Assembly (NCBI GenBank): GCA_049676235.1
Contig: JBAUAY010000389.1
Location: forward strand, 1 to 33,857
Source of the DNA: Streptosporangiaceae bacterium
GTDB taxonomy: Bacteria > Actinomycetota > Actinomycetes > Streptosporangiales > Streptosporangiaceae
Length of the DNA: 33,857 nt
Direction: 5' to 3'
Numbering within the stretch: position 1 is the stretch's first letter; every line of letters starts with the position of its first letter. The notes beneath the pieces were generated by a model that did not search any database, was not told the DNA's origin, and saw nothing but the letters and a program-made list of their open reading frames with translations. The position numbers were made by a program, and so were the translations under genes. This document shows, piece after piece, positions 2,347-26,874 of this stretch.

Positions 2347-3342
2347 ATGAAGGTCCTGATCGCGGGGGGCGCCGGGTACATCGGAAGCACGATCGCGTCG
2401 GCTTGCTCCGACGCGGGGATCAGCTCGGTGATCCTGGATAGCCTGGTGACCGGCAGGCGCGAGTTCACGGCGGGCCGCACGTTCTATGCGGGCGATATCG
2501 CCGACGGGCCGCTGATCGATCGCATCTTCGCCGAACATCCCGACATCGACGCCGTTATCCACGGCGCGGCCCTGATCGTGGTGCCGGACTCGGTCGCCGA
2601 CCCGGTGGGCTATTACCGGGCGAACGTCGCGAAGAGCCTGGAATTCGCCGCGCACCTGCTGCGCAACGGCTGCGCCCGGCTGATCTTCAGTTCCTCGGCT
2701 GCCATCTACCGGGCCAGTGAGGACCTCAGCGTCGATGAAGACTCGCCCATCGACCCGCAGAGCCCGTACGCGCGGACCAAGGCGGTGTGCGAGGCGATGT
2801 TCGCCGACATCGCCGCTTCCCAGCCCCTGCGCGTACTGTCCCTGCGGTACTTCAACCCGATCGGCGCGGACCCCAAGATGCGGACGGGGCTGCAGTTGCG
2901 GCAGCCGACGCACGCCCTGGGCAAGATCATCCAGGCGGCCGGAGAAGGCACCCCGTTCCTGATCACCGGGACCGGCTGGCCGACCCGCGATGGTTCGGGC
3001 CTGCGGGATTACATCCATGTCTGGGACCTAGCCACCGCGCACGTGGCCGCGCTCACCCGGTTCGACGCTCTGCCCGGGCCGGTGACGGTCATCAACCTGG
3101 GCAGCGGCACGGGCACCACGGTCCGGGAGCTTCTCGCCGCGTTCAACCGGGTGGCCCACCAGCCCGTCGAGGCGCGTGAGGCCGGCTCGCGGCCCGGTGA
3201 CGTGGCCGGCGCCTACACCCGCATCGGCCGCGCGGAGCGGCTGCTGGGCTGGCGGCCGCAGTACGACATCGCCGAGGGCATCAGGCATTCGCTTCAGTGG
3301 GCGGCGCTCCGCGACGATGTCTTGTCCGGCGAGAGCGCTTAG
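2347..3342 (+). CDS. galE: UDP-glucose 4-epimerase (NAD-dependent epimerase/dehydratase)
   Basis: Has the N-terminal Rossmann motif MKVLIAGGAGYIGS, a catalytic YxxxK (SPYARTK), and LRYFNPIGA, which is typical of GalE. It lies 10 nt downstream of the acyl-CoA synthetase. Confidence 0.88.
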   Translation: MKVLIAGGAGYIGSTIASACSDAGISSVILDSLVTGRREFTAGRTFYAGDIADGPLIDRIFAEHPDIDAVIHGAALIVVPDSVADPVGYYRANVAKSLEFAAHLLRNGCARLIFSSSAAIYRASEDLSVDEDSPIDPQSPYARTKAVCEAMFADIAASQPLRVLSLRYFNPIGADPKMRTGLQLRQPTHALGKIIQAAGEGTPFLITGTGWPTRDGSGLRDYIHVWDLATAHVAALTRFDALPGPVTVINLGSGTGTTVRELLAAFNRVAHQPVEAREAGSRPGDVAGAYTRIGRAERLLGWRPQYDIAEGIRHSLQWAALRDDVLSGESA

Positions 3343-3641
3343 GTTTCCTTGCGCAGCGCGGCCAGCTGGTAGACGGGATCGGGACGGACGCGGCAGCAGG
3401 ATTCAAGCGCGGCCTGATATGTCACCTCAGTAGCTCCGTATATGAGGCGGAAAAGCTCACCGTGGTCATGCATGGTGATGATCGCGAAGTTCTGTGCTGA
3501 AGAGATTGGAAAATGATTGTATTGGCTGATATCGGAGGACAGCGTATGATCGAACAGCTTTGGTAGCCAGCCCCGGCCACCCGCCTCGGGGCTGTGGGGG
3601 AGCGGAGATGGGCCAGAAGCTTTCACGACGTACACCGGCAA
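3339..3641 (-). CDS. hypothetical small ORF in an AT-rich island (start uncertain; internal ATG at 3473)
   Basis: 100-aa ORF with no recognisable family. The middle part uses A/T-ending codons that are atypical for this genome, while the C-terminal 25 codons have a normal GC third position. It may be non-coding. Confidence 0.2.
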   Translation of the reverse strand: MPVYVVKASGPSPLPHSPEAGGRGWLPKLFDHTLSSDISQYNHFPISSAQNFAIITMHDHGELFRLIYGATEVTYQAALESCCRVRPDPVYQLAALRKET

Positions 3642-4594
3642 CGCCTGCTCGGCAGGAAGAACCGTCGTGGCCGGCGGTGGCGAGCACCACGGTGCGTCTA
3701 TGGCTGGAAAGGCACCACTGGTACCCGGCAGGCCGCCGGCGGCGTCTGGTGCTCGTGCTGAGCGCGCTGGTGGCCATGGCCCTGGGGGCCGGCGTGACGC
3801 TAGCCTTCACCCAGCGGGGACCGGCGCCGGCCGCGTCGCCGCCCAGCCGCTCCGCGCAGGGACCAACCGCGCTGCAGGTGGCGGCGGCTGACCGCCACCA
3901 GGCGGCGATGTGGATCGGCCAGCAGGTGGAATCGAGCGCGGTCGTGGGCTGTGACCCGGAGATGTGCAACGAGCTGCAGCAGAGCGGCTTCCCCGCCGGT
4001 CAGCTCAATGAACTGCAGCCGACGGCCCCTGACCCTGAGGGTTCGCTCCTGGTCGTAGCCACGCCGGTGATCCGGAACCAGTTCGGCACCCGGCTGGCCA
4101 GCGTCTACGCGCCGCTGGTGATCGCCAGCTTCGGCTCGGGCGCGGAGCGGGTCGACATCCGTTACGTCGCGCCGGGCGGCACCGCGGCCTTCGAGTCGCG
4201 GCTCGCGGCGGACCTGAAGAACCGCATCGCCGCGGGCGGGCAGCTGCTGACCAACAAGCATGTCCAGGCCTCCCCGGCCGCGCGCCAGGCGCTTGCGGCC
4301 GGACAGGTGGATCCGCGCCTGCTTGTAACGCTTTCGGCACTTGCTCACCAATGGCCACTTCAACTGGTAGCGTTCGATGATCCCTCGCCCGGCGTGAGCT
4401 CGGACGTACCGCTACGCGGCGCTGAAATTGGCGCCGCCGCGTCGGCTGGCTTGCCGGCGATGGTTGTGTTCCTGAGGGCACAGCAAAGCCAGTATGCCCC
4501 GGCGGTGGCCCGCATTACTCAGGACGCGAACGGCCAGTCCGTGGTCACCGTGCGGTACGACGCTCCGGGTCCTATGGGGCTAGGAGGCTCATAG
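3608..4594 (+). CDS. membrane-anchored secreted protein of unknown function
   Basis: ATG 3608 (MGQKLSRR...) is preceded by GGGGGAGCGGAG. There is a single N-terminal TM helix (LVLVLSALVAMALGAGVTLAF) followed by an extracytoplasmic domain of about 260 aa. It sits upstream of the DUF4397/sortase pair. Confidence 0.65.
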   Translation: MGQKLSRRTPATPARQEEPSWPAVASTTVRLWLERHHWYPAGRRRRLVLVLSALVAMALGAGVTLAFTQRGPAPAASPPSRSAQGPTALQVAAADRHQAAMWIGQQVESSAVVGCDPEMCNELQQSGFPAGQLNELQPTAPDPEGSLLVVATPVIRNQFGTRLASVYAPLVIASFGSGAERVDIRYVAPGGTAAFESRLAADLKNRIAAGGQLLTNKHVQASPAARQALAAGQVDPRLLVTLSALAHQWPLQLVAFDDPSPGVSSDVPLRGAEIGAAASAGLPAMVVFLRAQQSQYAPAVARITQDANGQSVVTVRYDAPGPMGLGGS

Positions 4595-4622
4595 AGATTT
4601 AACAGCTTGGGGAGGGATCAAA

Positions 4623-5519
4623 GTGAAGTTTCCGAGAATAACTAGACGAATCACCATGCTGCTGGCCGCCTCGGCCTTGCTGCTTGGTATTCCCGCTGCC
4701 GCCACTGCTTCGGCCGCTTCAGCCGCTTCTGCCACTTCGGGTACCGGCTGGATCAGGCTCGCTCACCTGTCGCCGAACACACCCCCCGTCGACGTTTACC
4801 TCTATTCATTCGGCAATTCCAACGCGCAGATCGTGCTCCACCACGTTTCCTACGGAACGGTCTCGCCCTACGAGGCAGTAACCGCCGGTGACTACAGCGT
4901 GGCCATGCGGGCATCCGGGGCCTCCCCGTCGAGCCAGCCGGTCCTGTCCACCAGCGTGACGGTCAAGGCCGATCACGCCTACACGGTGGCCGGCATGGGA
5001 CCGGAGTCGGGCCTGCGGCTTCAGGTCATAGACGACAGCCTGACCGCGCCAGCGGGTAAGTCCTCGGTGCGGGTGATCCAGGCGTCGCTCAAGCAGCAGG
5101 TCGTGAAGTTCCACTGCAGCTGCGCCCCCGGCGCAGCCGGGGACATCGTGACCAAGGCGTCGTTCGGCTCCGTGAGTCCGTATGCGGCCATCCCGCCGGG
5201 TACCTGGACCATGTCGGCGATCGTCGGAGGCACTACCAAGGCGACCCTGCCCACCACGCTCGTCGCGGGCACCGTCCACACGATGGTGGTGCTCGACGGG
5301 ACCAACGGCCTTGAGATCGTGGACCTGGTGGACGCGGCCGGGGCCGGCCAGCCGCCGGCGGGCGGGGTCACGACCGGGTTCGGCGGCACCGCGAGGCACG
5401 GTCCGGGATCGCCGGTGCCCTGGGTGGCACTCATCGGAGCCGGCGCGCTGATCGCCCTGACGGGCGGTTTCAGGCTGCGCCGCCACGGAATGCGGCGTCA
5501 GCTGAACACCGGGATCTAA
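4623..5519 (+). CDS. DUF4397 domain-containing cell-surface protein with a C-terminal TM anchor
   Basis: GTG start after GGGGAGGG. It has a signal peptide (LLAASALLLGIPAAATASA) and repeated DUF4397-like strands (GWIRLAHLSPNTPPVDVYL; SVRVIQASL...). The C-terminus reads AGGVTTGFGGTA...PWVALIGAGALIALTGGF-RLRRHGMRR. Confidence 0.8.
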   Translation: MKFPRITRRITMLLAASALLLGIPAAATASAASAASATSGTGWIRLAHLSPNTPPVDVYLYSFGNSNAQIVLHHVSYGTVSPYEAVTAGDYSVAMRASGASPSSQPVLSTSVTVKADHAYTVAGMGPESGLRLQVIDDSLTAPAGKSSVRVIQASLKQQVVKFHCSCAPGAAGDIVTKASFGSVSPYAAIPPGTWTMSAIVGGTTKATLPTTLVAGTVHTMVVLDGTNGLEIVDLVDAAGAGQPPAGGVTTGFGGTARHGPGSPVPWVALIGAGALIALTGGFRLRRHGMRRQLNTGI

Positions 5520-5521
5520 GG

Positions 5522-6160
5522 ATGCCGACCCGCAAGCCGGCCGCGATCGTTTTCGCGGCCGGCTTGGTCGTGATCGTGGCCGGAACGGCGGGCCTGCTGC
5601 TGACGCGTCACTCCACCCCGGCCTTGCGGCCGGTCGCGGCCGGGGTGGCCGCGCTGCCCGCGCCCACCGGCCCGATCGCGGCTCCGCCGCAGTCGGCGCA
5701 GCCGGCCCCCGTCGCCAGTCCGGTCTCGCTGACCATTCCGCTGATCGGCGTGAAGACCCAGCTGCTCACGCTGGGCCTGGCCGCTAGGGGCGCGTTGCAG
5801 GTGCCGCCCTTGTCCTCGGCGTCCATCGCGGGCTGGTACACCGGAAGCCCACGGCCCGGCGCGATCGGCTCGGCCATCATCGTGGGCCACATCGACTCGC
5901 AGAGTGGTCCCGGGGTGTTCTTCCGGCTGTCCGAGCTGCGCCGCGGGGACGACGTCTACGTCAAGCGAACCGACGGCTCCACGGCGGAGTTCCGCGTCAC
6001 ATCGGTCCAGAGGTACCTGAAGGACCACTTCCCGACGGCGACGGTGTACGGTCCCACGCCGGACGCGGAGCTTCGCCTGATCACCTGCGGCGGTGCCTTC
6101 GATTCCGCCACCGGCCACTACCTGAGCAACATCGTGGTCTACGCCACCGAGGTGAGCTGA
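5522..6160 (+). CDS. class F sortase
   Basis: Has an N-terminal TM helix, a catalytic His context (AIIVGHID) and a TLxTC-type Cys motif (LRLITCGG). It begins 2 nt after the DUF4397 stop codon. Confidence 0.85.
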   Translation: MPTRKPAAIVFAAGLVVIVAGTAGLLLTRHSTPALRPVAAGVAALPAPTGPIAAPPQSAQPAPVASPVSLTIPLIGVKTQLLTLGLAARGALQVPPLSSASIAGWYTGSPRPGAIGSAIIVGHIDSQSGPGVFFRLSELRRGDDVYVKRTDGSTAEFRVTSVQRYLKDHFPTATVYGPTPDAELRLITCGGAFDSATGHYLSNIVVYATEVS

Positions 6161-6986: not shown

Positions 6987-7064
6987 ATGGACTACAACGG
7001 CAACGTCTGGCTCCGGCAAGAAGTCCACCGCGGCCAGGGCCGACGATGGATCGTTCGGACCTGA
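6987..7064 (+). CDS. candidate 25-codon upstream ORF (leader peptide) of the ECF sigma gene
   Basis: ATG 6987 is preceded by AAGGAGGG (6972..6979, 7-nt spacer), the strongest SD in this intergenic region. It encodes MDYNGNVWLRQEVHRGQGRRWIVRT. Third codon positions are mostly G/C. The stop TGA 7062..7064 overlaps sigma ATG 7064 as TGATG. It is too short to appear in the ORF track. Confidence 0.3.
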   Translation: MDYNGNVWLRQEVHRGQGRRWIVRT

Positions 7065-8050
7065 TGAGCACGGACCAGACGGTTCGCGCGGCGCTCACGG
7101 GTGATGGGCCCGCGTTCGCCGCCCTCACCGAACGGCACCGACGCGAGCTACACGTCCACTGCTACCGGATGCTGGCCTCGTTCGACGAGGCCGAGGACGC
7201 GGTGCAGGAGACGTTCCTCAAAGCATGGCGCGGCTGGTCCGGCTTCGACGGCGGTTCGCAGTTCCGCGCGTGGATGTACCGGATCGCCACCAACGTCTGC
7301 CTGGACATGCTGCGACGCAGCTCGCGGCGTACCGCCGGGAGCTCGTTCGCCGAGGTGCCGTGGCTTCAGCCGTACCCGGACCTGCTGCTTGAGGCGGCCG
7401 CGCCGAGCGACGAGCAGCCCGAGGCGGTGGCCATCCGGCGGGAGACGATCTCGCTGGCGTTCCTGGCTGCCCTACAGGTCCTGCCGCCGAGGCAGCGCGC
7501 CGCGCTGATCGCCCGGGATGTGCTCGGCTGGCCCGCCACCGAGACCGCCTCGTCGCTCGGCACCAGCGTCGCTGCGGCCAACAGCGCCCTGCAGCGGGCC
7601 CGGGCGACGATGCAGTCGCACCTGCCTGCCCAGCGCGCCGAGTGGTCCGCGCGGGAGCCGAGCGCCGAAGAACGCGAGCTGGTCGAGCAGTTCATCGAGG
7701 CGCACGAGCGATGCGACGCCGAGGCCGCCATCGCGATCGCGGCCCGGGACATCCGGGTGACCATGCCGCCGCTGCCGTACTGCTTCGACGGGCCGGACGC
7801 GATCAGGCCGCTGATGGCCGACGCGGCCTCGATGGGCGAATGGCGGCTGATCCCGGTGGGCGCCAACCGGATGCCGGCTGCGGCGAGCTACCTGCGCCAG
7901 CCGGGCGACAGCCAGTTCCGCGCGTTCAAACTCGACGTCATGCGCATCGAGGCCGGGCTGATCGCGGAGATCACCACGTTCAACGCGGAGCTTTTCCCGG
8001 CGTTCGGCCTGGATCCGGTCCTGTCAAGCGCGCAGCGGGGCGAGCGATAG
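7046..8050 (+). CDS. ECF RNA polymerase sigma factor with a C-terminal SnoaL/NTF2-like extension (SigG / TIGR02960-like)
   Basis: Region 2 reads HRRELHVHCYRMLASFDEAEDAVQETFLKAW...FRAWMYRIATNVCLDMLR and region 4 reads LPPRQRAALIARDVLGWPATETA. A C-terminal domain of about 130 aa follows. No anti-sigma gene is adjacent. ATG 7064 is an alternative start. Confidence 0.9.
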   Translation: MDRSDLMSTDQTVRAALTGDGPAFAALTERHRRELHVHCYRMLASFDEAEDAVQETFLKAWRGWSGFDGGSQFRAWMYRIATNVCLDMLRRSSRRTAGSSFAEVPWLQPYPDLLLEAAAPSDEQPEAVAIRRETISLAFLAALQVLPPRQRAALIARDVLGWPATETASSLGTSVAAANSALQRARATMQSHLPAQRAEWSAREPSAEERELVEQFIEAHERCDAEAAIAIAARDIRVTMPPLPYCFDGPDAIRPLMADAASMGEWRLIPVGANRMPAAASYLRQPGDSQFRAFKLDVMRIEAGLIAEITTFNAELFPAFGLDPVLSSAQRGER

Positions 8051-8059
8051 CCTGTCCCG

Positions 8060-8788
8060 GTGCTCGAACATGTCACGGCGACGCGGTACGTGACCCCGCT
8101 GCGCGAGGGCGGGTCGCTGCCCGCCATCGTCGAGGCGGACAATCTCGGCACTTACGTGATGAAGTTCCGCGGCGCTGGGCAGGGCCCGCTCGCGCTGGTC
8201 GCCGAGATCATCGCCGGCGAGCTCGCGCGCCGTCTCGGCCTGCGCGTCCCGGAGCTGGTCCTGGCCGACCTCGATCCGCGGATCCCCGGCAGCGAGCCCG
8301 ACCCGGAGATCCAGGACCTGCTGCGCACCAGCGAGGGCTTGAACCTCGGCGTGGACTTCCTGCCCAGCTCGTTCGGCTTCGATCCGCTCGGCTGGACGGC
8401 CAGCCGCGACTTTGCCAGCCAGGTGCTCTGGTTCGACGCGCTGGTGCACAACGTCGACCGCACCTGGCGCAACCCGAACCTCCTGGTCTGGCACCGCGAC
8501 ATCTGGCTCATCGACCACGGCGCCGCGTTGTACTTCCACCACAACTGGCCGCAAAGGGGCCCGGCCGATCCCAAGCGCCCCTTCGACGCGAGCGAGCACG
8601 TGCTGCGCGACCGTGCCACCGCGCTCGCCGACGCCCATGCCGCGCTCGCCCCGCGGGTCACGGAAACCCTGCTCCGGGAGGTGACCGCGCTGGTGCCGCC
8701 CGGGTGGTTCGGCGACCGCGGCGCCGAGGCCTACGTGGAGCACCTCATGCTGCGCGCCCCGATCGTGCCGGAGGTGATCCGCGGATGA
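8060..8788 (+). CDS. HipA-like kinase family protein (HipA_2-type, no HipB partner)
   Basis: 242 aa. It has a kinase-like catalytic loop LVHNVDRTWRNPNLLV and a metal-binding LIDHGAAL, with an N-terminal YVMKFRGAGQG. It starts 9 nt after the sigma stop, and its stop overlaps the next start as ATGA. Confidence 0.75.
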   Translation: MLEHVTATRYVTPLREGGSLPAIVEADNLGTYVMKFRGAGQGPLALVAEIIAGELARRLGLRVPELVLADLDPRIPGSEPDPEIQDLLRTSEGLNLGVDFLPSSFGFDPLGWTASRDFASQVLWFDALVHNVDRTWRNPNLLVWHRDIWLIDHGAALYFHHNWPQRGPADPKRPFDASEHVLRDRATALADAHAALAPRVTETLLREVTALVPPGWFGDRGAEAYVEHLMLRAPIVPEVIRG

Positions 8789-9168
8789 CCCTGCCCAACA
8801 CGGCCGAAGTCTTCGAGTATGCGCTGGTCCGCGTGGTCCCCCGGGTCGAGCGGGGCGAGGCCATCAACGCCGGGGTGATCGTCTATGCGCAGACCTTCCG
8901 GTACTTGTGCGCCCGGATCGAGCTTGATGAGTCCCGGTTGCTCGCCCTCGATCCGGCGGCGGACCTGGACGGGGTGCGGGCCGGGCTGTCGGCGTTCGAG
9001 AAGGCCTGCACCGAGGGCCCGCTGGCCGGCCGGCCGCTCGGCGAGCGGTTCCGCTGGCTCACGGCGCCCAGGTCGACCATCGTCCAGCCCGGTCCGGTGC
9101 ACAGCGGCCTCACCGCCGACCCGGCCGCCGAGCTGACCCACCTCTTCGAGACCCTGGTGCGAATTTGA
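8785..9168 (+). CDS. DUF3037 domain-containing protein
   Basis: This is the last 127 codons of track ORF 7642..9168. MTLPNTAEVFEYALVRVVPRVERGEAINAGVIVY matches the remembered DUF3037 N-terminal signature (Y..lrfvP...rgEf.NvGvi). ATG 8785 overlaps the upstream stop by 4 bp. Confidence 0.78.
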   Translation: MTLPNTAEVFEYALVRVVPRVERGEAINAGVIVYAQTFRYLCARIELDESRLLALDPAADLDGVRAGLSAFEKACTEGPLAGRPLGERFRWLTAPRSTIVQPGPVHSGLTADPAAELTHLFETLVRI

Positions 9169-9965
9169 CCTCCGAGAGCTTTGACCCCGTCGCGTATAAC
9201 CGCGCTGCCTGGGACCGCGAGGTGGACCAGGAAAACGAATGGACCCGGCCTGTCGGGCCCGATGTCATCGCCCGGGCCCGGGCCGGTGACTGGTCGGTGG
9301 TCCTCATCGGCTATGAGCCCGTACCCCGCGACTGGTTTCCCGCTGACCTGGCGGGGACCTCAGTGCTCTGCCTCGCCTCGGGCGGCGGGCAGCAGGGGCC
9401 CGTTCTCGCCGCCGCGGGCGCGAACGTGACCGTGTTCGACAACTCACCCAGGCAACTCGGCCGCGACGAGGAGGTGGCCGCCCGGGACGGCCTGGACCCC
9501 AAGGCCATGACGACCGTGCTCGGTGACATGCGGGATCTGGGTGCCTTCGCCGATGGCCGCTTCGACCTCATCTTCAACCCTGTGTCGAACCTGTTCTGCC
9601 CGGACCTGGCTCCCTTGTGGCGGGAGTGCTTCCGCGTCCTGCGCCCGGCGGGGATATTGCTGGCGGGATTCATGAACCCGGATTTGTACATCTTCGACAT
9701 CGAGGCGCTCGATACGAGACAGGAGTTCGTCGTACGCCACCGGATTCCCTTTTCCACTGCAGAACTGCCCGACGCCGAACGCCGGCGGATCTACGACGAT
9801 GGCCCGATTGAGTACAGCCACACGCTGACGGAGCAGATCGGCGGCCAGCTGGCGGCTGGCTTCACCCTGACTCACCTGGTCGAGGCACCGCACCACGCCG
9901 ACGCCACGGCCCAGTACATGCCCGGATACTTCGCCACCCGTGCCGTCAAGCCATCCGGCGGCTAA
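9165..9965 (+). CDS. class I SAM-dependent methyltransferase
   Basis: Motif I reads VLCLASGGGQQGPVLAAAGANVTVFDNS, and the post-I/II motifs read FDLIFNPVSNLF and LRPAGILL. The TTG start at 9165 overlaps the DUF3037 stop as TTGA. Confidence 0.85.
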   Translation: MTSESFDPVAYNRAAWDREVDQENEWTRPVGPDVIARARAGDWSVVLIGYEPVPRDWFPADLAGTSVLCLASGGGQQGPVLAAAGANVTVFDNSPRQLGRDEEVAARDGLDPKAMTTVLGDMRDLGAFADGRFDLIFNPVSNLFCPDLAPLWRECFRVLRPAGILLAGFMNPDLYIFDIEALDTRQEFVVRHRIPFSTAELPDAERRRIYDDGPIEYSHTLTEQIGGQLAAGFTLTHLVEAPHHADATAQYMPGYFATRAVKPSGG

Positions 9966-14727: not shown

Positions 14728-16200
14728 GTGGCAGATATAAGCCTCACGGCCGGCGTGGTGAGCTTTGACGAGGTCGCCTGGCTGCGCGATAACAGTCCCG
14801 CGTGGCGGCTGCTGCGTGCCGACCACGCGCCGCTGGTGCTCAGCTTCCTGCATCAGGTGTTCGTCACCGAGAACGTCCGGTCGATCCCGGCCGCCGAACT
14901 GGCCAGCCGTCTGGACGATGCGCTGTACGCACTCAACGAGCGCGGCGGCGAGCCGAAGAAGTATCCCAGGCCGGCGAAGGCGTACCTGGACGATTGGGCC
15001 GCGCCGGAGGCCGGCTGGCTGCGCAAGTATTACCCGGAAGGCACCGACGAACCCCATGTCGACGCCACTCCTGCGGTGGAGAAGGCGCTGCAGTGGGTCG
15101 GCAGCCTGAAAGAACGTGAGTTCGTCGGGACCGAGTCGCGGCTCAACACGATCATCGACCTGCTTCGGCAGATCGTCTTTGGCACCGAGCCCGACCCGGA
15201 ACAGCGGATCGCCGAGCTGCGCCGGCAGCGCCAGGAGATTGACGATCAGATCGCCCGCATCGGTGCCGGCGAGCTCGATCTGCTCGACGCCAGCGCGGTC
15301 CGCGACCGTTACCAGCAGTTCTCCGCTACCGCGCGGGAGCTCCTCGCCGATTTCCGCGAGGTGGAGGAGAACTTCAGGAAGCTGGACAGGCAGCTGCGCG
15401 AGAAGATCACCGGCTGGCACGGCGGTAAGGGCGAACTGCTCGATGACGTACTCGGCAGCCGGGAGACAATCGCGGGCTCGGACCAGGGCAAGTCTTTCCA
15501 GGCGTTTTATGACTTCCTGCTGTCGCAGGCGCGGCAAGAGGAGCTGAGCGGCCTGCTGGACAGCGTGCACCAGCTGACGGAGATCAACGGGAGAGATCAG
15601 AGGCTGCGGCATATTCACTACGACTGGCTCGATGCGGCCGAGCGGACCCAGGCGACGGTGCGCCAGTTGTCCGAGCAGCTCCGGCGGTTTCTCGATGACC
15701 AGGTGTGGTTCGAGAACCGCCGGGTGATTGACATCCTGCGCGACATCGAGTCGCACGCACTGGAATTCCGCGAGCTACGAGATGTCCCCGTTTCAATGGA
15801 ACTTGACGCTGCCGTACCGGCCATCCGGCTGCCCATGGAGCGCCCGCTGTACGCTCCAGTGCGAAAGGCGCGCATCGACAGCCAGAACGTTCGGCCCGCC
15901 GACGAGGAAACCGACCCGGCTGCTCTGTTCGAGCAGGTTTACGTGGATCCGGAGCAGCTGCGCGGCTGCGTCAGGCAGGCGCTCCGCCGCGCTCCGCAGG
16001 TCGGTCTGGCCCAGCTCGTGGCCGACTACCCCATCAGGCAGGGCGTCGCGGAGCTCGTCACGTACCTGTCCCTGAAGGACGGCACGTTCGAGCTCGTCTT
16101 CGACGAGCGCCATGATGAGCAGGTGCGCTGGCAGGAGGCGGACGGCCGGGAACGGAAGGTGACCATGCCGCGCGTCACGTTCGTCAGGAGCTCCGGATGA
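14728..16200 (+). CDS. jetA: Wadjet JetA (DUF3375; MksF/kleisin-like subunit)
   Basis: 490 aa. PAWRLLRADHAPLVLSFLHQVFVTENVRSIPAAELASRLDDALY is the characteristic DUF3375 N-terminus. It is the first gene of a four-gene jetABCD order. Confidence 0.88.
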   Translation: MADISLTAGVVSFDEVAWLRDNSPAWRLLRADHAPLVLSFLHQVFVTENVRSIPAAELASRLDDALYALNERGGEPKKYPRPAKAYLDDWAAPEAGWLRKYYPEGTDEPHVDATPAVEKALQWVGSLKEREFVGTESRLNTIIDLLRQIVFGTEPDPEQRIAELRRQRQEIDDQIARIGAGELDLLDASAVRDRYQQFSATARELLADFREVEENFRKLDRQLREKITGWHGGKGELLDDVLGSRETIAGSDQGKSFQAFYDFLLSQARQEELSGLLDSVHQLTEINGRDQRLRHIHYDWLDAAERTQATVRQLSEQLRRFLDDQVWFENRRVIDILRDIESHALEFRELRDVPVSMELDAAVPAIRLPMERPLYAPVRKARIDSQNVRPADEETDPAALFEQVYVDPEQLRGCVRQALRRAPQVGLAQLVADYPIRQGVAELVTYLSLKDGTFELVFDERHDEQVRWQEADGRERKVTMPRVTFVRSSG

Positions 16201-16216
16201 GCGAGCGGGAGACACC

Positions 16217-16831
16217 ATGATTGAGCCGGACCTGTCGCTGACCGTCACCCAGCTGATGAAGGGCGTCGTCTACCGCGACACGCACGAGCGCGCCTGGCGG
16301 CACCTGCTCCAGCTCCAGCCGCAGGTGCGGGACTACGTGGCGGTGCTCGGGCTGCAGGTCGTGGTCGATGAGGCCGAGGGTTACGCGTTCTGCCGCCAGC
16401 GTCCCCCTGATGAGGCGCGTGACGACACCGACCCAGAGAACCCGCTGCCCCGGCTTATCCCGCGCCGTCCGCTGTCCTTTCACGTAAGCCTGCTGCTCGC
16501 ATTGCTCCGTAAGAAACTGGCCGAGTTCGACGCGCAAGGCGGCGACACCAGGCTGATGCTGAGCCGGGACCAGATCGCCGAGATGATGCGGGTATTCCTT
16601 CCGCCGACGAGCAACGAGGTCCGGCTGGCTGACAAGATTGACGCGCACATCGGCAAGGCCGTCGACCTCGGCTTTCTCCGTCCGGCCAAGAATGCCGAGC
16701 CGGTCTATGAAGTTCGCCGGATACTCAAGGCCTTCGTCGACGGCCAGTGGCTCGCCGACTTCGACACCAGGCTCGCCGAATACGCCACGCTACTAGCCGA
16801 CGAACAGGCGCGAGCGGGAGACACACCATGA
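16217..16831 (+). CDS. jetB: Wadjet JetB (DUF4194; MksE-like subunit)
   Basis: 204 aa. LMKGVVYRDTHERAWRHLLQLQPQVRDYVAVLGLQVVVDEAEGYAF is the typical DUF4194 opening. The stop overlaps the jetC ATG as ATGA. Confidence 0.88.
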   Translation: MIEPDLSLTVTQLMKGVVYRDTHERAWRHLLQLQPQVRDYVAVLGLQVVVDEAEGYAFCRQRPPDEARDDTDPENPLPRLIPRRPLSFHVSLLLALLRKKLAEFDAQGGDTRLMLSRDQIAEMMRVFLPPTSNEVRLADKIDAHIGKAVDLGFLRPAKNAEPVYEVRRILKAFVDGQWLADFDTRLAEYATLLADEQARAGDTP

Positions 16832-19800
16832 CCGAGATCCTCAGCGGCTTCCGGCTGACCCGGCTGGAACTGTACAACTGGGGCACGCTCGACCAGCGGG
16901 TCTGGTCGCTGGACGCGAACGCGCGGAACACGCTGCTGACCGGCGACATCGGGTCAGGGAAATCCACCATCGTGGACGCGGTCACCACGCTGCTGCTGCC
17001 GGCCAACCGGATTTCCTACAACAAGGCCGCGGGCGCGGACACCAGGGAGCGGTCGCTGCGCTCTTATGTGCTCGGCTATTTCAAGTCCGAGCGCAACGAG
17101 GTCACCGGGACCACGAAACCGGTCGCACTTCGCGATGGCACGAAGTACAGCGTGATCATCGGCGTATTCGGCAACGAGGGGTACGACGCCACCGTCACCA
17201 TCGCCCAGGTGTTCTGGCTGCGCGGCGCCGACGCCGGCGGTCAGCCGGACCGGTTCTACGTGACCACCGACAAGCCGTTGTCGGTGGCCGTGGATTTCGC
17301 CGACTTCGGCTCTGACCTGGTCGCGCTGCGCAGGCGGCTACGGGCGGGCGGCGCTCAGGTCTACGACAGCTTCCCAGATTATGGCAAGGATTTCCGACGC
17401 CGCCTGGGCATCGAGTCCGAACAGGCGATGGAACTGTTTCATCAGACCGTTTCGATGAAATCAGTGGGTAACCTCACCGACTTCGTCCGCGATCACATGC
17501 TGGAGCCCTTCGACGCCGCGAAATGGACCGCGAATATCGTGGCGCACTTCGAGGACCTCACTAAGGCGCACGAGGCGGTGCAGCGCGCCCGCTCCCAGCT
17601 CACCGCGCTCGGCCCGCTGCTCGCCGAATGTGACACACACGACAAGGTGGTCGCCGAGGTGGCGACGCTGACGGCACAGCGAACCGCGTTGAAGTACTAC
17701 TTCGCCGATCTCAAGGCCGGGCTCGTGGACCGGTTGATGGCCGGTCTTTCTGCCGAACGAACCAGCCTTCACGCTCAGCTAAGCGATTTCGCCACCCGGC
17801 TGAAAGATCTGCGGTCACGGGAACGCTCCCTCGATATCGAACTCGCCGGGCACGGAGGGAACCGGCTCGCCGAAATCGACCGCCTGCTCAAAGAGGGCGA
17901 GGCAGCGTGCCGTGACCGGATGGACCGCGCCGAGCGGTTCGGCCAGCTACTCGCCGAGGCTGGCCTGGATCCGGTCGAGACAGCAGACCACTTCGCCGCC
18001 CGCCGCCACCAGATCGCCGCTGCTCGCGACCGGGCCAGGCAGGATCTCATGGACGCGCAGAACAAGCTCACGGAGGTCGGCTACACGGCCAAGGAGCTCC
18101 GCGACAAGGCAGCCGAGATCAACGCCGAGCTCATCAGCCTGCGCGAGCACCCGAACAACATCCCTAAGCGTCAGCTGGACCTGCGCACCCGGATGTGCCG
18201 GGAGCTCGGGCTTGACACAGACGCACTGCCGTTTCCCGGGGAGCTGATCGCGGTGCGTCCCGAGGAGTCGGACTGGGAGGGCGCGGCGGAACGGCTGCTG
18301 CGCGGTTTCGCGCTGTCCGTGCTTGTCCCCGATCGGCACTACGCCGCGGTGTCCGACTGGATCGACGCCCACCACCTGAAGGCTCGGGTGGTCTACTACC
18401 GGGTCTCCGACCCCGCGCGGGAGGCCCGGATCCCGCCTGCTAGCTGGGCTCCCGGTGCCCTGGCCGCGAAGCTGAACATCAAGGACCACCCGTTCGCTCC
18501 GTGGCTAGAGCGCGAGCTGGCCAGGCGGGCCGACTTCGAGTGTGTCGAGACGATGTCTGAGTTCCGGCGGGCGGCCAAAGCGATCACCAAGGCCGGGCAG
18601 TTCAAGGGGGATCGCGGCAGGCACGAGAAGGACGACAGATCCCGCATCGACGACCGCAGCCAGTACGTGCTCGGCTGGTCTAACGAGCGCAAGCTCGAGG
18701 CCCTGATCCGGCAGGCCACATCGCTGGCAGCTCAGCTCGGCGCGGTCACCGACGAGCAGGCAGCCTACGAAAAGGCGCGCGACGCCGCGATCGACTGCGG
18801 TCAGGTGCTGGCCGGCCTGGCCCAGACCCACGAGTTCGCCGACCTCGACTGGCAGTCCGTCGTCAACCGCACCGAGGAGCTCAAGGCAGAAAAGCGCCAG
18901 CTCGAGGCGGCGTCGGCCGAGCTAGCGCGGCTAAGTGGTGAGCTGAAAACGGTCCGGGAGCAGATCGGTATCGCCGAAGGCGCCCACGGCGAGGTGCAGA
19001 AGCAGCTCGGCGGCGTGGGCGGCCGGATCGAACGCGCGGAGGCCGACCTAGCCGAGGCCAGCGCGACGCTGGCCGAGCCGGGCTGCGAGTCGGCCCGCAC
19101 GCACTTCGCCACGATCGCCGGCCTGCTCAAGCGGTTCGAGCAGGCTCCGCCGGACACCCCCGTCGCCTGCGGCAAAGCCGAGATGGCAGCGAGCGCGGAG
19201 ATCAGCGTGGTCATAGACCGCAGGACCCAGCGTCGCAGCGCCCTCGGCAACAAGATCGTCTCCCTGATGGGGTCGTTCCGCAGCCAGTATCCGGTCGAGA
19301 CCGAGGAGCTTGACGCGGCAGTGGAAGCGGCGGACGGGTACCGGGAGCTGAACCAGCGGCTGACCGATGACGACCTGCCCCGGTTCCAGCAGCAGTTCAA
19401 GACGTACCTGAACCAGAACACCATCCGCGACATCGCCGGCTTCCAGTCCCGGCTGAACAAACAGGCCGACGTGATCAGGGGTCGCATCGCCACCATCAAT
19501 GAATCGCTGGTCGGCGTCGACTACAACCCCGGCAGGTACATCAAGCTCGAGGCACAGCCAACCCCGCATACCGATGTCCGCGAGTTCCGCGCCGACCTGC
19601 GCGCCTGCACCGAGGGCGCGGTGTCGGCGGAGGCCTCTGACCAGTACTCGGAACAGAAGTTCCTGCAGGTCAGCAGGATCATCGAGCGCTTCAGGGGCCG
19701 CGAGGGCCAGACCGACGCGGACCGGAAATGGACCCGGTTCGTTACCGACGTGCGGAACTGGTTCATGTTCAGCGCGTCCGAGCGGTACCGAGAGGACGAC

Positions 19801-20244
19801 ACCGAGTACGAGCATTACGCCGATTCGGCGGGCAAGTCCGGCGGGCAGAAAGAGAAGCTGGCTTACACGATTCTCGCCGCATCGCTGGCTTACCAGTTCA
19901 AGTTGGAGTGGGGGGCGACGAAGTCGCGGACATTCCGGTTCGCGGTCATCGACGAGGCGTTCGGCCGGGGCTCAGACGAGTCGACCAGGTTCGCGCTCGA
20001 GCTGTTCGCTCGGCTTGGCCTGCAGCTCCTGATCGTCACCCCACTGCAGAAGATCCACGTCATCGAGCCGTACGTGTCGGCGGTCGGCTTCGTAGATAAC
20101 CCGACGAGCTGCTACTCCCGGCTGCAGACGCTGACGATCGAGGAGTACCACGCGCGGCGGCTCGCGCACGTGATCGGCCAGCAAGCGACCGCTAGCAGCG
20201 CCCAGGTCATCCCGATGCCAGCCGCTGCCACCGCCGGGAACTGA
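16828..20244 (+). CDS. jetC: Wadjet JetC (SMC-like ABC ATPase; MksB-like)
   Basis: ATG 16828 (MTEILSGFRLTRLELYNWGTL). It has a Walker A motif (GDIGSGKST), a long coiled-coil middle, a signature/Q-loop-type GGQKEKLAYTILAASLAYQF and a Walker B motif (FAVIDEAFGRGSD). It is about 1138 aa. Confidence 0.92.
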   Translation: MTEILSGFRLTRLELYNWGTLDQRVWSLDANARNTLLTGDIGSGKSTIVDAVTTLLLPANRISYNKAAGADTRERSLRSYVLGYFKSERNEVTGTTKPVALRDGTKYSVIIGVFGNEGYDATVTIAQVFWLRGADAGGQPDRFYVTTDKPLSVAVDFADFGSDLVALRRRLRAGGAQVYDSFPDYGKDFRRRLGIESEQAMELFHQTVSMKSVGNLTDFVRDHMLEPFDAAKWTANIVAHFEDLTKAHEAVQRARSQLTALGPLLAECDTHDKVVAEVATLTAQRTALKYYFADLKAGLVDRLMAGLSAERTSLHAQLSDFATRLKDLRSRERSLDIELAGHGGNRLAEIDRLLKEGEAACRDRMDRAERFGQLLAEAGLDPVETADHFAARRHQIAAARDRARQDLMDAQNKLTEVGYTAKELRDKAAEINAELISLREHPNNIPKRQLDLRTRMCRELGLDTDALPFPGELIAVRPEESDWEGAAERLLRGFALSVLVPDRHYAAVSDWIDAHHLKARVVYYRVSDPAREARIPPASWAPGALAAKLNIKDHPFAPWLERELARRADFECVETMSEFRRAAKAITKAGQFKGDRGRHEKDDRSRIDDRSQYVLGWSNERKLEALIRQATSLAAQLGAVTDEQAAYEKARDAAIDCGQVLAGLAQTHEFADLDWQSVVNRTEELKAEKRQLEAASAELARLSGELKTVREQIGIAEGAHGEVQKQLGGVGGRIERAEADLAEASATLAEPGCESARTHFATIAGLLKRFEQAPPDTPVACGKAEMAASAEISVVIDRRTQRRSALGNKIVSLMGSFRSQYPVETEELDAAVEAADGYRELNQRLTDDDLPRFQQQFKTYLNQNTIRDIAGFQSRLNKQADVIRGRIATINESLVGVDYNPGRYIKLEAQPTPHTDVREFRADLRACTEGAVSAEASDQYSEQKFLQVSRIIERFRGREGQTDADRKWTRFVTDVRNWFMFSASERYREDDTEYEHYADSAGKSGGQKEKLAYTILAASLAYQFKLEWGATKSRTFRFAVIDEAFGRGSDESTRFALELFARLGLQLLIVTPLQKIHVIEPYVSAVGFVDNPTSCYSRLQTLTIEEYHARRLAHVIGQQATASSAQVIPMPAAATAGN

Positions 20245-20245
20245 C

Positions 20246-21487
20246 ATGCCTCGTCAGTGGACCCGTCCCGCCGACGTACGCGCCTGGCTGGCCAGGAAAT
20301 GGCAGTCCGGCGCCTTGCTCGCCGCGTTCGCCGAGGGAAGGGATTGGGAACCGCTGGGTGTCCCGCTGCACGGCCCCACGGCCGGGGAGATCGCGGAGCG
20401 GCTCGCCGAGGTGCAGGTGTGGGCGGCCGAGTGGGGCCGGGCCGGCGCAGGCCCGCTGCGCGTGGAGTACAAGACGGTTGGCGGTCGCCAGGTGGGCGCC
20501 AACATGATTCCCTGCCGGGCCTGGATCGACGGCTATGACAGCGCGTGGGACCTGCTCGGCGCGCGCGCGGAAGTACGCAGCTTCAGTTCCCTGGCTCACG
20601 CAACGGCGGAGACCTGTCCCCGGCTCGTCCCATGGCTGACGCGCCGCCCGGTGCAGTTGCTCCGGCTGGCGGACCGTTGGGACAAACTGCTGGCCACCGT
20701 CCGGTGGATCGACGAGCAGCAGTCGCCAGGAATGTACCTGCGGCAGGTCGACGTGCCCGGCGTGGACACCAAGTTCATCGAGCACCACCGCGGTGTGCTC
20801 GGTGAACTGCTCGACCTGCAACTTGCCCCGCACCGGATCGACGCCGACGCGACCGACTTCGCCGGGCGGTACCGGTTCCGCCGCAAGCCGGGCTACGTGC
20901 GGTTCCGCGCGCCGGGTTTCTGCGGCTTCAGCGAGCTTTCCGTGCGCGCCGGCGAGTTCGCCGCGCCGCCACCCGGTACTAGATGGGCATACGTGGTCGA
21001 GAACGAGATCACCTACCTGGCCTTCCCGCTGCCCAGTGGCGCCATCGTCATCTTCGGCGGGGGATACGCCGTCGACGTGCTCGAGCCGCTCGGCTGGCTG
21101 ACGAACCTGGACCTCATCTACTGGGGTGACATCGATACCCACGGGTTCGCGATCCTGAACCGGCTACGGCACCGGTTCAGCCACGCGCGGTCGATGCTGA
21201 TGGACCGCGCGACGTTGCTCGCGCACCGAGACCAGTGGGTGACCGAGCCGCGGCCCGCGGTCGCCCGCCTGGACCTTCTGGACGCCGAGGAAGCGGAGCT
21301 TCACCGCGATCTCGCCGACGGCACACTGGGGCCCTCGGTGCGGCTGGAGCAGGAACGAATCCGCTTCGCCGCTATCGAGCGAGCCGTCGCCTGCCAGCCA
21401 ACCGCCTGCCAGCCAACCGCCTGCCAGCCAACCGCCTGCCAGCCAGCCGCCTGCCCGGCCAGTCCACCGGCTGGCCGGCCCAGCTGA
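20246..21487 (+). CDS. jetD: Wadjet JetD (DUF3322 plus DUF2220 Toprim nuclease; MksG-like) with a repeat tail
   Basis: Starts 1 nt after the jetC stop. The C-terminal Toprim-like motifs read YVVENEITYLAFP and LIYWGDIDTHGFAILNRLR. The last 30 aa or so are ACQPT pentapeptide repeats. Confidence 0.9.
   Translation: MPRQWTRPADVRAWLARKWQSGALLAAFAEGRDWEPLGVPLHGPTAGEIAERLAEVQVWAAEWGRAGAGPLRVEYKTVGGRQVGANMIPCRAWIDGYDSAWDLLGARAEVRSFSSLAHATAETCPRLVPWLTRRPVQLLRLADRWDKLLATVRWIDEQQSPGMYLRQVDVPGVDTKFIEHHRGVLGELLDLQLAPHRIDADATDFAGRYRFRRKPGYVRFRAPGFCGFSELSVRAGEFAAPPPGTRWAYVVENEITYLAFPLPSGAIVIFGGGYAVDVLEPLGWLTNLDLIYWGDIDTHGFAILNRLRHRFSHARSMLMDRATLLAHRDQWVTEPRPAVARLDLLDAEEAELHRDLADGTLGPSVRLEQERIRFAAIERAVACQPTACQPTACQPTACQPAACPASPPAGRPS
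21389..21463 (+). repeat. 15-bp tandem repeat GCCTGCCAGCCAACC, 4 good copies plus 1 degenerate copy, inside the jetD 3' end
   Basis: Read directly. Units lie at 21389, 21404, 21419 and 21434 (the fourth ends AGCC), with a degenerate unit at 21449. The repeat is in frame (5 codons) and encodes ACQPT ACQPT ACQPT ACQPA ACPAS. Confidence 0.9.
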
Positions 21488-25635: not shown

Positions 25636-25800
25636 GGCACCGTACGATACCGGTTCTCCGGCCAGGCCGTCCGGAACTTCCGGTGGGTCCAGTTGATTAG
25701 GAATGACCGGCCGGCCTGGTCTCGCAGATCTTCTTGTTGACCCCTACGATCTGCTGATGGGGGCGACCTCGTACCGTGACCGCAGGCCAGGCAGGGCCGA

Positions 25801-26805: not shown

Positions 26806-26874
26806 CGTCTACTCCTGTTCAGCTCGTGCGCACCAGGCCGTGACCCAGTGCACGTTGCGGGCGTTCGGTCTCAT

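What the first reader, a model, noticed from the sequence alone, without database searches (positions are those of the whole stretch)
7046..9965. Tightly coupled operon: ECF sigma, orphan HipA-like kinase, DUF3037 and SAM methyltransferase (candidate undescribed toxin/signalling module)
Seen directly: four same-strand genes with almost no spacing. The sigma stop (8050) and kinase start (8060) are 9 nt apart. The kinase stop and DUF3037 start overlap as ATGA at 8785-8788. The DUF3037 stop and methyltransferase start overlap as TTGA at 9165-9168. The kinase keeps HipA-like catalytic features (NVDRTWRNPN, IDHG) but is short (242 aa). It has no HipB/HTH antitoxin gene next to it, and it is followed by a protein of unknown function (DUF3037). 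The sigma factor has a C-terminal SnoaL-like domain and no anti-sigma factor. From established knowledge, HipA kinases are growth-arresting toxins that phosphorylate aminoacyl-tRNA synthetases, and some ECF groups (ECF43) are activated by Ser/Thr kinase phosphorylation. I infer two possibilities. (a) This is a reverse-order HipA-type toxin-antitoxin or abortive-infection-like pair, with DUF3037 as the neutraliser and the methyltransferase as an accessory. (b) This is a kinase-controlled ECF sigma circuit. I know of no described system with this composition.
Basis: partly seen in the sequence, partly recalled or inferred. Interest (0 to 1): 0.72.

Follow-up and report, generated by a model that had tools for sequence, protein, structure and literature searches.

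The report
HipA-like kinase and DUF3037 gene pair
The core of this cluster is a widespread two-gene module (a short HipA-like kinase plus a DUF3037 protein) whose relatives were recently shown to act as a toxin-neutraliser anti-phage system, while the neighbouring sigma factor and methyltransferase are only local neighbours, so it is a new member of a known kind and not an undescribed system.

Summary
Four same-strand genes lie at the stated coordinates with 9-nt, ATGA and TTGA junctions, and the family assignments hold.

Only two of the four genes form a conserved unit. In 80 genomic loci found through DUF3037, the kinase lies directly upstream in 79, and the two genes overlap in 70 of 78 measured junctions. 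The sigma factor is present in 6 of 80 and the methyltransferase in 4 of 80.

The pair is already described. It is PADLOC candidate PDC-M66, the validated E. coli system DS-6 ("HipAD"), and the HipA/DUF3037 unit of the Retron-Sda1 operon. In those systems, deleting DUF3037 is toxic, and deleting the kinase or mutating its catalytic Asp abolishes phage defence. Profile comparison links the window proteins to DS-6A (97.9%, E 3e-13) and DS-6B (95.6%, E 1e-8). The essential DS-6A D139 aligns with window D133.

Differences: the window partner is a minimal 127-aa DUF3037 without the C-terminal domain of DS-6B. This clade is chromosomal, stably placed within genera, and absent from viral contigs and defence islands.

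Reading (b), kinase control of the sigma factor, is not supported. A Wadjet system lies 5.4 kb downstream.

The parts
8060..8788 (+). HipA_2-family (HipA-like) protein kinase, 242 aa; the presumed toxin or effector of the pair
   Evidence: Pfam HipA_2 at E 8e-13. PADLOC PDC-M66A at E 1.6e-22 over residues 1-223. hhalign against validated DS-6A: 97.9% probability, E 3e-13, 198 columns. Invariant across three phyla: K35, G38-A-G-Q-G42, E49, N131-x-D133-R134-x-x-R137-N138-x-N140, I151-D152-H153-G154. D133 aligns with DS-6A D139, whose mutation abolishes defence. AlphaFold2 model pTM 0.81 with a protein-kinase-like fold; best match is H. pylori CtkA.
8785..9168 (+). Minimal DUF3037 protein, 127 aa; the presumed neutraliser of the kinase, translationally coupled to it by an ATGA overlap
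   Evidence: Pfam DUF3037 at E 8e-41, full length. PADLOC PDC-M66B at E 4e-7, N-terminal 65 residues only. hhalign against DS-6B residues 3-129: 95.6% probability, E 1e-8. The kinase is directly upstream in 79 of 80 loci, and the genes overlap in 70 of 78 junctions. Invariant G86-x-R-F-x-W-L-x-A-P-R-S-T98 and Q101. AlphaFold2 pLDDT 89. No PDB fold match, but four uncharacterised phage proteins match at TM about 0.6.
7046..8050 (+). ECF sigma factor of the TIGR02960 (SigG-like) family with a C-terminal SnoaL-like domain. Probably co-transcribed here, but not a conserved partner of the pair
   Evidence: NCBIfam TIGR02960 at 355 bits and PRK08241 at 372 bits. Pfam Sigma70_r2 and r4_2, with SnoaL_2 just below cut-off. 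Found next to the pair in only 6 of 80 loci. L003 has the same upstream genes without it, and L023 has about 1 kb inserted between the sigma and the kinase.
9165..9965 (+). Class I SAM-dependent methyltransferase, 266 aa. Lineage-specific downstream neighbour, not a conserved partner
   Evidence: Pfam Methyltransf_11 at E 4e-15. Present downstream of the pair in 4 of 80 loci. The TTGA overlap is shared only with L001; L004 and L006 have gaps of 300-600 nt. The PADLOC mad2 match covers only the generic SAM-binding domain.

Best explanation
The functional unit is the two-gene module at 8060-9168. It consists of a short HipA_2-family protein kinase and, translationally coupled to it, a small DUF3037 protein.

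It is a minimal-form homologue of the PDC-M66 / DS-6 ("HipAD") / Retron-Sda1 HipA-DUF3037 system.

Most likely mechanism, inferred by homology: the kinase is a growth-arresting effector that phosphorylates an essential cellular target. That target is unknown, and by analogy with HipA it may be part of the translation machinery. DUF3037 binds the kinase and keeps it inactive. Loss or displacement of DUF3037, for example during phage infection or another stress, frees the kinase.

Shown here: the homology, the obligate synteny and coupling, the conservation of the catalytic residues, and purifying selection.

Inferred: toxicity, neutralisation by direct binding, and any anti-phage role in this organism.

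The ECF sigma gene upstream and the methyltransferase downstream are probably co-transcribed in this genome but do not belong to the module.
For: Family assignment.

Synteny starting from DUF3037: kinase upstream in 79 of 80 loci, overlapping in 70 of 78.

Synteny starting from the kinase: DUF3037 is directly downstream in Pontibacter, in a 7.6-Mb metagenomic contig, in Parabacteroides distasonis and in a Campylobacter temperate phage.

No third gene recurs in more than 13 of 80 loci.

Homology to the validated DS-6A and DS-6B, with the same gene order and 4-nt overlap, and with the essential Asp conserved.

Catalytic motifs are invariant across Actinomycetota, Acidobacteriota and Bacteroidota.

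The two proteins diverge in step (r = 0.88), and dN/dS is 0.1-0.35.

Experiments in the literature: in Retron-Sda1, deleting DUF3037 is toxic and deleting HipA abolishes defence (PMC12548924). In DS-6, the catalytic mutant loses defence and AlphaFold3 predicts an A-B complex (PMC13092281).

Occasional decay of the kinase (L026, L031, L032, L033, L071) or its loss (L080) fits a dispensable accessory module.
Against: The validated systems carry a longer DUF3037 protein: 275 aa with a DUF1829-like, predicted DNA-binding C-terminus in DS-6B, and a DNA-binding-like C-terminus in Sda1. The window protein stops after the DUF3037 domain, and PDC-M66B matches only its first 65 residues.

This minimal clade does not look like typical mobile defence cargo:
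- Its context is stable within each genus, among housekeeping genes.
- No member was found in 2.9 million viral contigs.
- Only 8 of 72,556 plasmid records carry it.
- 149 flanking proteins show no defence or mobile-element enrichment.

Cross-phylum identity of about 50%, with an invariant RFRWLTAPRST motif in the presumed antitoxin, is unusually high for a toxin-antitoxin pair.

No toxicity, binding or phage data exist for this clade. No DNA-binding element for autoregulation was detected in the 127-aa protein.
Confidence: 0.62

Rival explanations
1. The minimal HipA_2/DUF3037 clade is a resident chromosomal kinase-regulator (or kinase-substrate) pair. It would be used for endogenous growth or stress control, or for phosphorylating a small molecule. 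It would not be a poison-antidote or anti-phage system. DUF3037 would be a regulatory subunit or phospho-acceptor, and its invariant RFRWLTAPRST segment is a candidate site.
For: Context is stable and genus-specific among housekeeping genes. The clade is absent from viral contigs and rare on plasmids. The flanks show no defence enrichment. Cross-phylum conservation of both proteins is high. The partner lacks the C-terminal domain of the validated systems. The kinase fold also resembles small-molecule kinases such as FN3K and AmiN at lower rank.
Against: The pair is clearly homologous over full length to DS-6A and over the whole DUF3037 domain to DS-6B, with identical gene order and coupling. 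Pseudogenised or missing kinases in several loci indicate dispensability. Distribution within families appears patchy. A Campylobacter prophage carries a related pair next to its repressor.
Confidence: 0.25
2. One reading: the kinase controls the adjacent ECF sigma factor by phosphorylation, in a kinase-regulated ECF circuit of the ECF43 kind.
For: There are 9 nt between the sigma stop and the kinase start, and no anti-sigma gene is adjacent. Five further close relatives keep the sigma directly or nearly directly upstream.
Against: The sigma is present in only 6 of 80 loci. L003 and L033 keep the same upstream genes without it. No ECF sigma at E <= 1e-5 lies within 6 kb of the pair in the other 74 loci. 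The sigma belongs to TIGR02960. From general knowledge of such ECF groups, its own C-terminal SnoaL-like extension is the usual regulatory element, which explains the missing anti-sigma factor. The pair functions without any sigma factor in E. coli (PMC13092281).
Confidence: 0.04
3. All four genes form one functional system, with the SAM methyltransferase as an accessory or immunity component.
For: The junctions in the window are overlapping or nearly so, and no terminator-like site lies between the genes on the + strand. L001 shares the TTGA junction.
Against: The methyltransferase is present in 4 of 80 loci, with gaps of 300-600 nt in two of them. The sigma and methyltransferase occur together with the pair only in the window and L002. 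The methyltransferase is a generic Methyltransf_11 enzyme with no specific defence model match.
Confidence: 0.07

Closest known systems
DS-6 / HipAD of E. coli (DefensePredictor, PMC13092281; Brenes & Laub 2025, cited there)
   Same: A short HipA-like kinase (249 aa against 242 aa) is followed by a DUF3037 protein with a 4-nt overlap. Profile homology covers the whole kinase and the whole DUF3037 domain. The essential catalytic Asp (D139) is conserved as D133.
   Different: DS-6B is 275 aa and has a C-terminal DUF1829-like region predicted to bind DNA, whereas the window protein is 127 aa and is DUF3037 only. Kinase identity is about 26%. According to those authors, DS-6 came from E. coli accessory and prophage-type regions, whereas the window clade is chromosomal and stably placed.
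PADLOC candidate system PDC-M66 and the HipA/DUF3037 unit of the Retron-Sda1 operon (PMC12548924)
   Same: The kinase matches PDC-M66A at E 1.6e-22 over nearly its full length. DUF3037 matches PDC-M66B. The Sda1 experiments define the toxin-neutraliser logic proposed here.
   Different: The PDC-M66B model is 281 positions long and the window protein matches only positions 4-68. Sda1 has an upstream HTH gene and an associated retron reverse transcriptase and ncRNA, and neither is present here.
Canonical HipBA (E. coli HipA/HipB) and HipBST
   Same: The concept is the same: a protein-kinase-fold toxin held in check by a small partner encoded in the same operon. The Pfam name is also shared (HipA_2, "HipA-like kinase").
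   Different: hhalign detects no similarity to E. coli HipA (1.9% probability). HipA is not among the top 50 fold matches. The kinase is about 200 aa shorter and lacks the HipA N-terminal subdomains. There is no HipB-type HTH antitoxin. The partner is downstream, not upstream. DUF3037 does not resemble HipB, HipS or the HipA N-terminal domain.
H. pylori CtkA (PDB 3akl/3akk) and Fam20/CotH atypical kinases
   Same: These are the best structural neighbours of the kinase model (Foldseek E 4e-4, TM 0.55). They share the atypical protein-kinase-like fold.
   Different: Sequence identity is 12-13% and the TM-score is only moderate. None of them has a DUF3037 partner.

Membership tests
HipA_2-DUF3037 two-gene system (PDC-M66 / DS-6 = HipAD) | Kinase of the HipA_2 / PDC-M66A family | tested here: met
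   Pfam HipA_2 at E 8e-13. PDC-M66A at E 1.6e-22. hhalign against DS-6A: 97.9% probability, E 3e-13.
HipA_2-DUF3037 two-gene system (PDC-M66 / DS-6 = HipAD) | DUF3037-domain protein encoded immediately downstream and coupled to the kinase | tested here: met
   ATGA overlap in the window. The same order holds in 79 of 80 loci, with overlap in 70 of 78. DS-6 has the same 4-nt overlap. hhalign against DS-6B gives E 1e-8.
HipA_2-DUF3037 two-gene system (PDC-M66 / DS-6 = HipAD) | Catalytic Asp required for defence (DS-6A D139) | tested here: met
   It aligns with window D133 in N-V-D-R-T, which is invariant in 54 homologues.
HipA_2-DUF3037 two-gene system (PDC-M66 / DS-6 = HipAD) | Partner protein with a C-terminal extension after DUF3037 (DUF1829-like or DNA-binding; about 275-281 aa) | tested here: not met
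   The window protein is 127 aa and ends with the DUF3037 domain. PDC-M66B matches only profile positions 4-68 of 281. Median length in this clade is 127 aa.
HipA_2-DUF3037 two-gene system (PDC-M66 / DS-6 = HipAD) | Kinase toxic without partner; system protects against phage | not testable with these tools
   This is known only for Sda1 and DS-6 (PMC12548924, PMC13092281).
HipA_2-DUF3037 two-gene system (PDC-M66 / DS-6 = HipAD) | Association with prophages, defence islands or mobile elements | tested here: inconclusive
   Against: no viral-contig members, 8 plasmid records, and housekeeping flanks. For: a Wadjet system lies 5.4 kb downstream in this window, and a distant pair sits in Campylobacter prophages.
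Canonical HipBA type II toxin-antitoxin | HipA_C / HipA_N / Couple_hipA domains, about 440 aa | tested here: not met
   Only HipA_2 is found and the protein is 242 aa. hhalign against E. coli HipA gives 1.9% probability.
Canonical HipBA type II toxin-antitoxin | Upstream HipB (Xre-type HTH) antitoxin | tested here: not met
   The upstream gene is an ECF sigma here and varies elsewhere. The partner lies downstream and has no HTH fold match.
HipBST tripartite system | HipS-like antitoxin resembling the HipA N-terminal subdomain | tested here: not met
   The DUF3037 model has no PDB match (best E 0.7). The DUF3037 profile against HipA gives 0.1% probability.
Kinase-regulated ECF sigma circuit (ECF43-like) | Conserved sigma-kinase synteny | tested here: not met
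   The sigma is next to the pair in 6 of 80 loci.
TIGR02960 (SigG-like) ECF sigma with C-terminal SnoaL-like domain | Full-length match above the curated cut-off | tested here: met
   TIGR02960 scores 355.5 bits against a 264.75-bit cut-off. PRK08241 scores 371.7 bits against 240.

The most novel reading that the evidence does not exclude
The DUF3037-only "minimal" clade is the commonest form of the family. It is shared at about 50% identity by Actinomycetota, Acidobacteriota and Bacteroidota, always chromosomal and never seen on viral contigs.

This clade may not be a phage-defence toxin-antitoxin at all. It could be a resident kinase switch. In that reading, the invariant RFRWLTAPRST segment of DUF3037 acts as a pseudosubstrate or phospho-acceptor that gates the kinase in response to an endogenous signal. 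The prophage-borne HipAD systems, with their longer partners, would then be a derived, weaponised offshoot.
Probability: 0.2. Interest if true: 0.55.

Novelty: new member of a known kind. Interest (0 to 1): 0.27.

Why it matters
The finding adds an actinomycete example of a kinase-DUF3037 module that has only recently been validated. It also shows that the commonest natural form of the module is a minimal DUF3037-only partner, chromosomal and conserved across phyla. That form differs from the two forms tested so far, both of which have longer DUF3037 proteins.

This is useful for whoever works out the kinase target and how DUF3037 neutralises it. The minimal pair is the simplest version for structural and biochemical work.

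It does not reveal a new type of system. The proposed link to ECF sigma regulation does not hold.

Tried and rejected
1. Sequence searches of the kinase and DUF3037, as single sequences and as profiles, against PDB sequences found nothing.

2. I tested whether DUF3037 is a HipS-like or HipA-N-subdomain-like antitoxin. This was rejected: there is no PDB fold match and no profile similarity to E. coli HipA.

3. I tested for canonical HipA membership. This was rejected.

4. I looked for a conserved third partner gene by clustering 905 flanking ORFs from the 80 loci. None recurred.

5. I tested for defence-island enrichment of the flanks. It was not found outside this lineage.

6. A viral-contig scan for the clade gave no confirmed hit.

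7. A literature search for "HipAD" returned unrelated biomedical papers. The primary HipAD paper (Brenes & Laub 2025) is not held, and Payne et al. 2024 does not mention PDC-M66 in its main text.

8. The Retron-Sda1 operon sequence is truncated in the stored supplement, so Sda1 proteins could not be compared directly.

9. The promoter and terminator scan was uninformative for this high-GC region.

10. The PADLOC "mad2" hit of the methyltransferase covers only the generic SAM-binding domain, so I disregarded it.
Full report
**1. Observation.** The four ORFs exist exactly as described.
- The sigma gene is 7046-8050.
- The kinase is 8060-8788, with a GTG start 9 nt after the sigma TAG.
- DUF3037 is 8785-9168, with an ATGA overlap.
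- The methyltransferase is 9165-9965, with a TTG start and a TTGA overlap.

Pfam gives Sigma70_r2 and r4_2 plus a sub-threshold SnoaL_2, HipA_2 (E 8e-13), DUF3037 (E 8e-41) and Methyltransf_11. NCBIfam places the sigma firmly in TIGR02960/PRK08241, the SigG-like ECF type whose model includes the C-terminal domain.

All four genes have host-like third-position GC. All four evolve under purifying selection against their closest relatives, with dN/dS of 0.1-0.35. No terminator-like site separates them on the + strand, so co-transcription in this genome is plausible.

**2. What is conserved.** A scan of 185,579 species-representative genomes with the DUF3037 protein returned 80 loci. They came from Streptosporangiaceae and Trebonia MAGs, Actinomycetospora, Frankia, Micromonospora, Jiangella, and some Acidobacteriota and Bacteroidota.

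A relative of the kinase lies immediately upstream of DUF3037 in 79 of the 80 loci. In 78 measurable junctions the genes overlap in 70, and by exactly 4 nt in 45. The sigma factor is present in 6 of 80 loci and the methyltransferase in 4 of 80.

Further details from these loci:
- L003 has the same upstream genes as the window but no sigma.
- L023 has about 1 kb inserted between the sigma and the kinase.
- The methyltransferase junction differs among its four occurrences.
- Clustering 905 flanking ORFs found no third gene in more than 13 of 80 loci.

Sampling in the other direction gave the same result. Starting from kinases in Pontibacter, in a 7.6-Mb metagenomic contig and in Parabacteroides distasonis, DUF3037 is again directly downstream and overlapping. 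The two proteins diverge in step, with r = 0.88 over 2,628 locus pairs. This correlation is not corrected for shared phylogeny.

The unit is therefore the two-gene pair. The four-gene arrangement is a local gene order in a few close relatives.

**3. What the pair is.** PADLOC models PDC-M66A and PDC-M66B match the kinase (E 1.6e-22) and the N-terminal half of DUF3037 (E 4e-7). Two papers describe the system.

In the Retron-Sda1 operon, HipA-like and DUF3037 genes form a stand-alone defence against phage Bas51. Deleting the kinase abolishes defence, and deleting DUF3037 is toxic. The authors note a strong HipA-DUF3037 association and the PDC-M66 assignment (PMC12548924).

DefensePredictor validated DS-6, which was renamed HipAD after independent discovery by Brenes & Laub 2025. 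It is a HipA-related kinase plus a DUF3037+DUF1829 protein. The authors report a predicted A-B complex and loss of defence in a catalytic mutant (PMC13092281).

I took the DS-6 sequences from that paper's supplement and compared them with profiles of the window's families.
- Kinase family against DS-6A: 97.9% probability, E 3e-13, 198 aligned columns.
- DUF3037 family against DS-6B residues 3-129: 95.6% probability, E 1e-8.
- The mutated DS-6A residue D139 lies in N-A-D-R-T and aligns with window D133 in N-V-D-R-T.
- DS-6 has the same gene order and the same 4-nt overlap.

**4. Anatomy.** Several kinase features are invariant in 54 homologues spanning three phyla:
- K35.
- The G38-A-G-Q-G42 loop.
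- E49.
- The catalytic loop N131-x-D133-R134-x-x-R137-N138-x-N140.
- I151-D152-H153-G154.

The AlphaFold2 model of the kinase (pTM 0.81) has a protein-kinase-like fold. Its nearest solved structures are H. pylori CtkA, Fam20 and CotH. Canonical HipA is not among the top 50 fold matches, and profile comparison with E. coli HipA shows no similarity (1.9% probability). The protein therefore belongs to the separate HipA_2 family and is not HipA proper.

DUF3037 folds confidently (pLDDT 89) into a small alpha/beta domain. It has no PDB neighbour (best E 0.7). Four uncharacterised phage proteins share the fold at TM about 0.6. It resembles neither HipB, nor HipS, nor the HipA N-terminal subdomain. 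Its G-E-R-F-R-W-L-T-A-P-R-S-T segment (residues 86-98) and Q101 are almost invariant.

**5. How this clade differs from the validated systems.** The window partner is 127 aa, DUF3037 only. This minimal form dominates the family. Median length is 127 aa in the loci, and most of the best 150 of about 2,570 clusters at 50% identity are 125-135 aa. The validated systems have partners of about 275 aa with an extra C-terminal domain.

The clade is chromosomal. Its context is stable within each genus but different between genera, and consists of housekeeping genes. Examples are PEP synthase or prolyl oligopeptidase in Actinomycetospora, pirin and Crp in Frankia, and pyrE, argH and gltA in Parabacteroides.

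Other observations point the same way:
- No member was confirmed in 2.9 million viral contigs.
- Only 8 of 72,556 plasmid records carry one.
- 149 non-redundant flanking proteins from 68 loci show no defence or mobile-element enrichment.

Set against this, several loci carry frameshifted, truncated or missing kinases, as expected for a dispensable accessory module. A distant HipA_2 plus DUF3037-N pair sits beside the repressor of Campylobacter temperate phages. In this window, a complete type I Wadjet system lies 5.4 kb downstream.

**6. Mechanism and rivals.** Best-supported explanation (confidence about 0.62): a kinase toxin or effector is held inactive by the co-translated DUF3037 protein and is released on infection or stress. 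This is inferred by homology to Sda1 and DS-6. The kinase target is unknown.

Main rival (about 0.25): in this conserved minimal clade the pair is an endogenous kinase-regulator switch and not a defence toxin-antitoxin.

**7. Verdict.** Reading (a) is right in substance for the core pair, but the pair is already described. The sigma factor and the methyltransferase are bystanders. The finding is a new member of a known kind and of modest interest. The open question is whether the abundant minimal form works like the validated long-partner forms.

Noticed in passing
window 14728-21487 (+): A complete type I Wadjet (JetABCD, MksBEFG-like) anti-plasmid system. JetA1 is 14728-16200 (E 5e-211), JetB1 is 16217-16831 (E 1.5e-90), JetC1 is 16747-20244 (E 0) and JetD1 is 20174-21487 (E 2e-133). 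It lies 5.4 kb downstream of the kinase-DUF3037 pair. A luciferase-like oxidoreductase, a HAD hydrolase, an aldo-keto reductase, a P450 and a NUDIX gene lie in between. JetA is also near the pair in L004.
   Followed up: partly
window 22789-25743 (-): A 984-aa SNF2-family helicase with a DUF3670 domain. It matches the generic SNF2 parts of the PADLOC DpdE and ZorD models at E about 1e-116, but no other Dpd or Zorya components were seen next to it.
   Followed up: partly
L081 2213-4072 (Campylobacter phage vB_CJ12660_3PH123, PP935708.1 6270-8129): A temperate Campylobacter phage encodes three overlapping genes directly after one another: a putative repressor, a 262-aa HipA_2 kinase (E 1e-9) and a 117-aa protein matching the N-terminal half of DUF3037 (E 2e-4, just under the Pfam cut-off). 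This looks like a prophage-borne, three-gene variant of the module.
   Followed up: partly
L026, L031, L032, L033, L071, L080 (genome loci): The kinase is decayed or absent next to an apparently intact DUF3037. It is split into two tblastn segments (suggesting a frameshift) in L026, L031, L032 and L071, truncated to residues 63-152 in L033, and absent in L080. Losing the kinase while keeping the partner is the decay pattern expected if the kinase is the harmful component.
   Followed up: partly
L042, L049, L066, L073, L079 (Frankia/Parafrankia loci), about 3200-4900: In Frankia and Parafrankia, a gene (cluster c9) that looks like a Crp/Fnr-type regulator and a gene (c23) that looks like a pirin sit upstream of the pair in conserved order. 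I identified both by reading their sequences, not by an HMM search. This is another lineage-specific transcription-factor neighbour, comparable to the ECF sigma in the window.
   Followed up: no
window 25801-26808 (-) and 4623-6160 (+): A radical SAM protein with DUF3463 lies at 25801-26808. A DUF4397 protein followed by a sortase lies at 4623-6160, which looks like a sortase-substrate pair. Neither is related to the finding.
   Followed up: no
Bacteroidota homologues P0308, P0314, P0323, P0349: Many HipA_2 kinases in Bacteroidota still carry the name "aminotransferase class I and II" in public records, alongside the newer "HipA family kinase". The older name is apparently propagated and wrong.
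   Followed up: no
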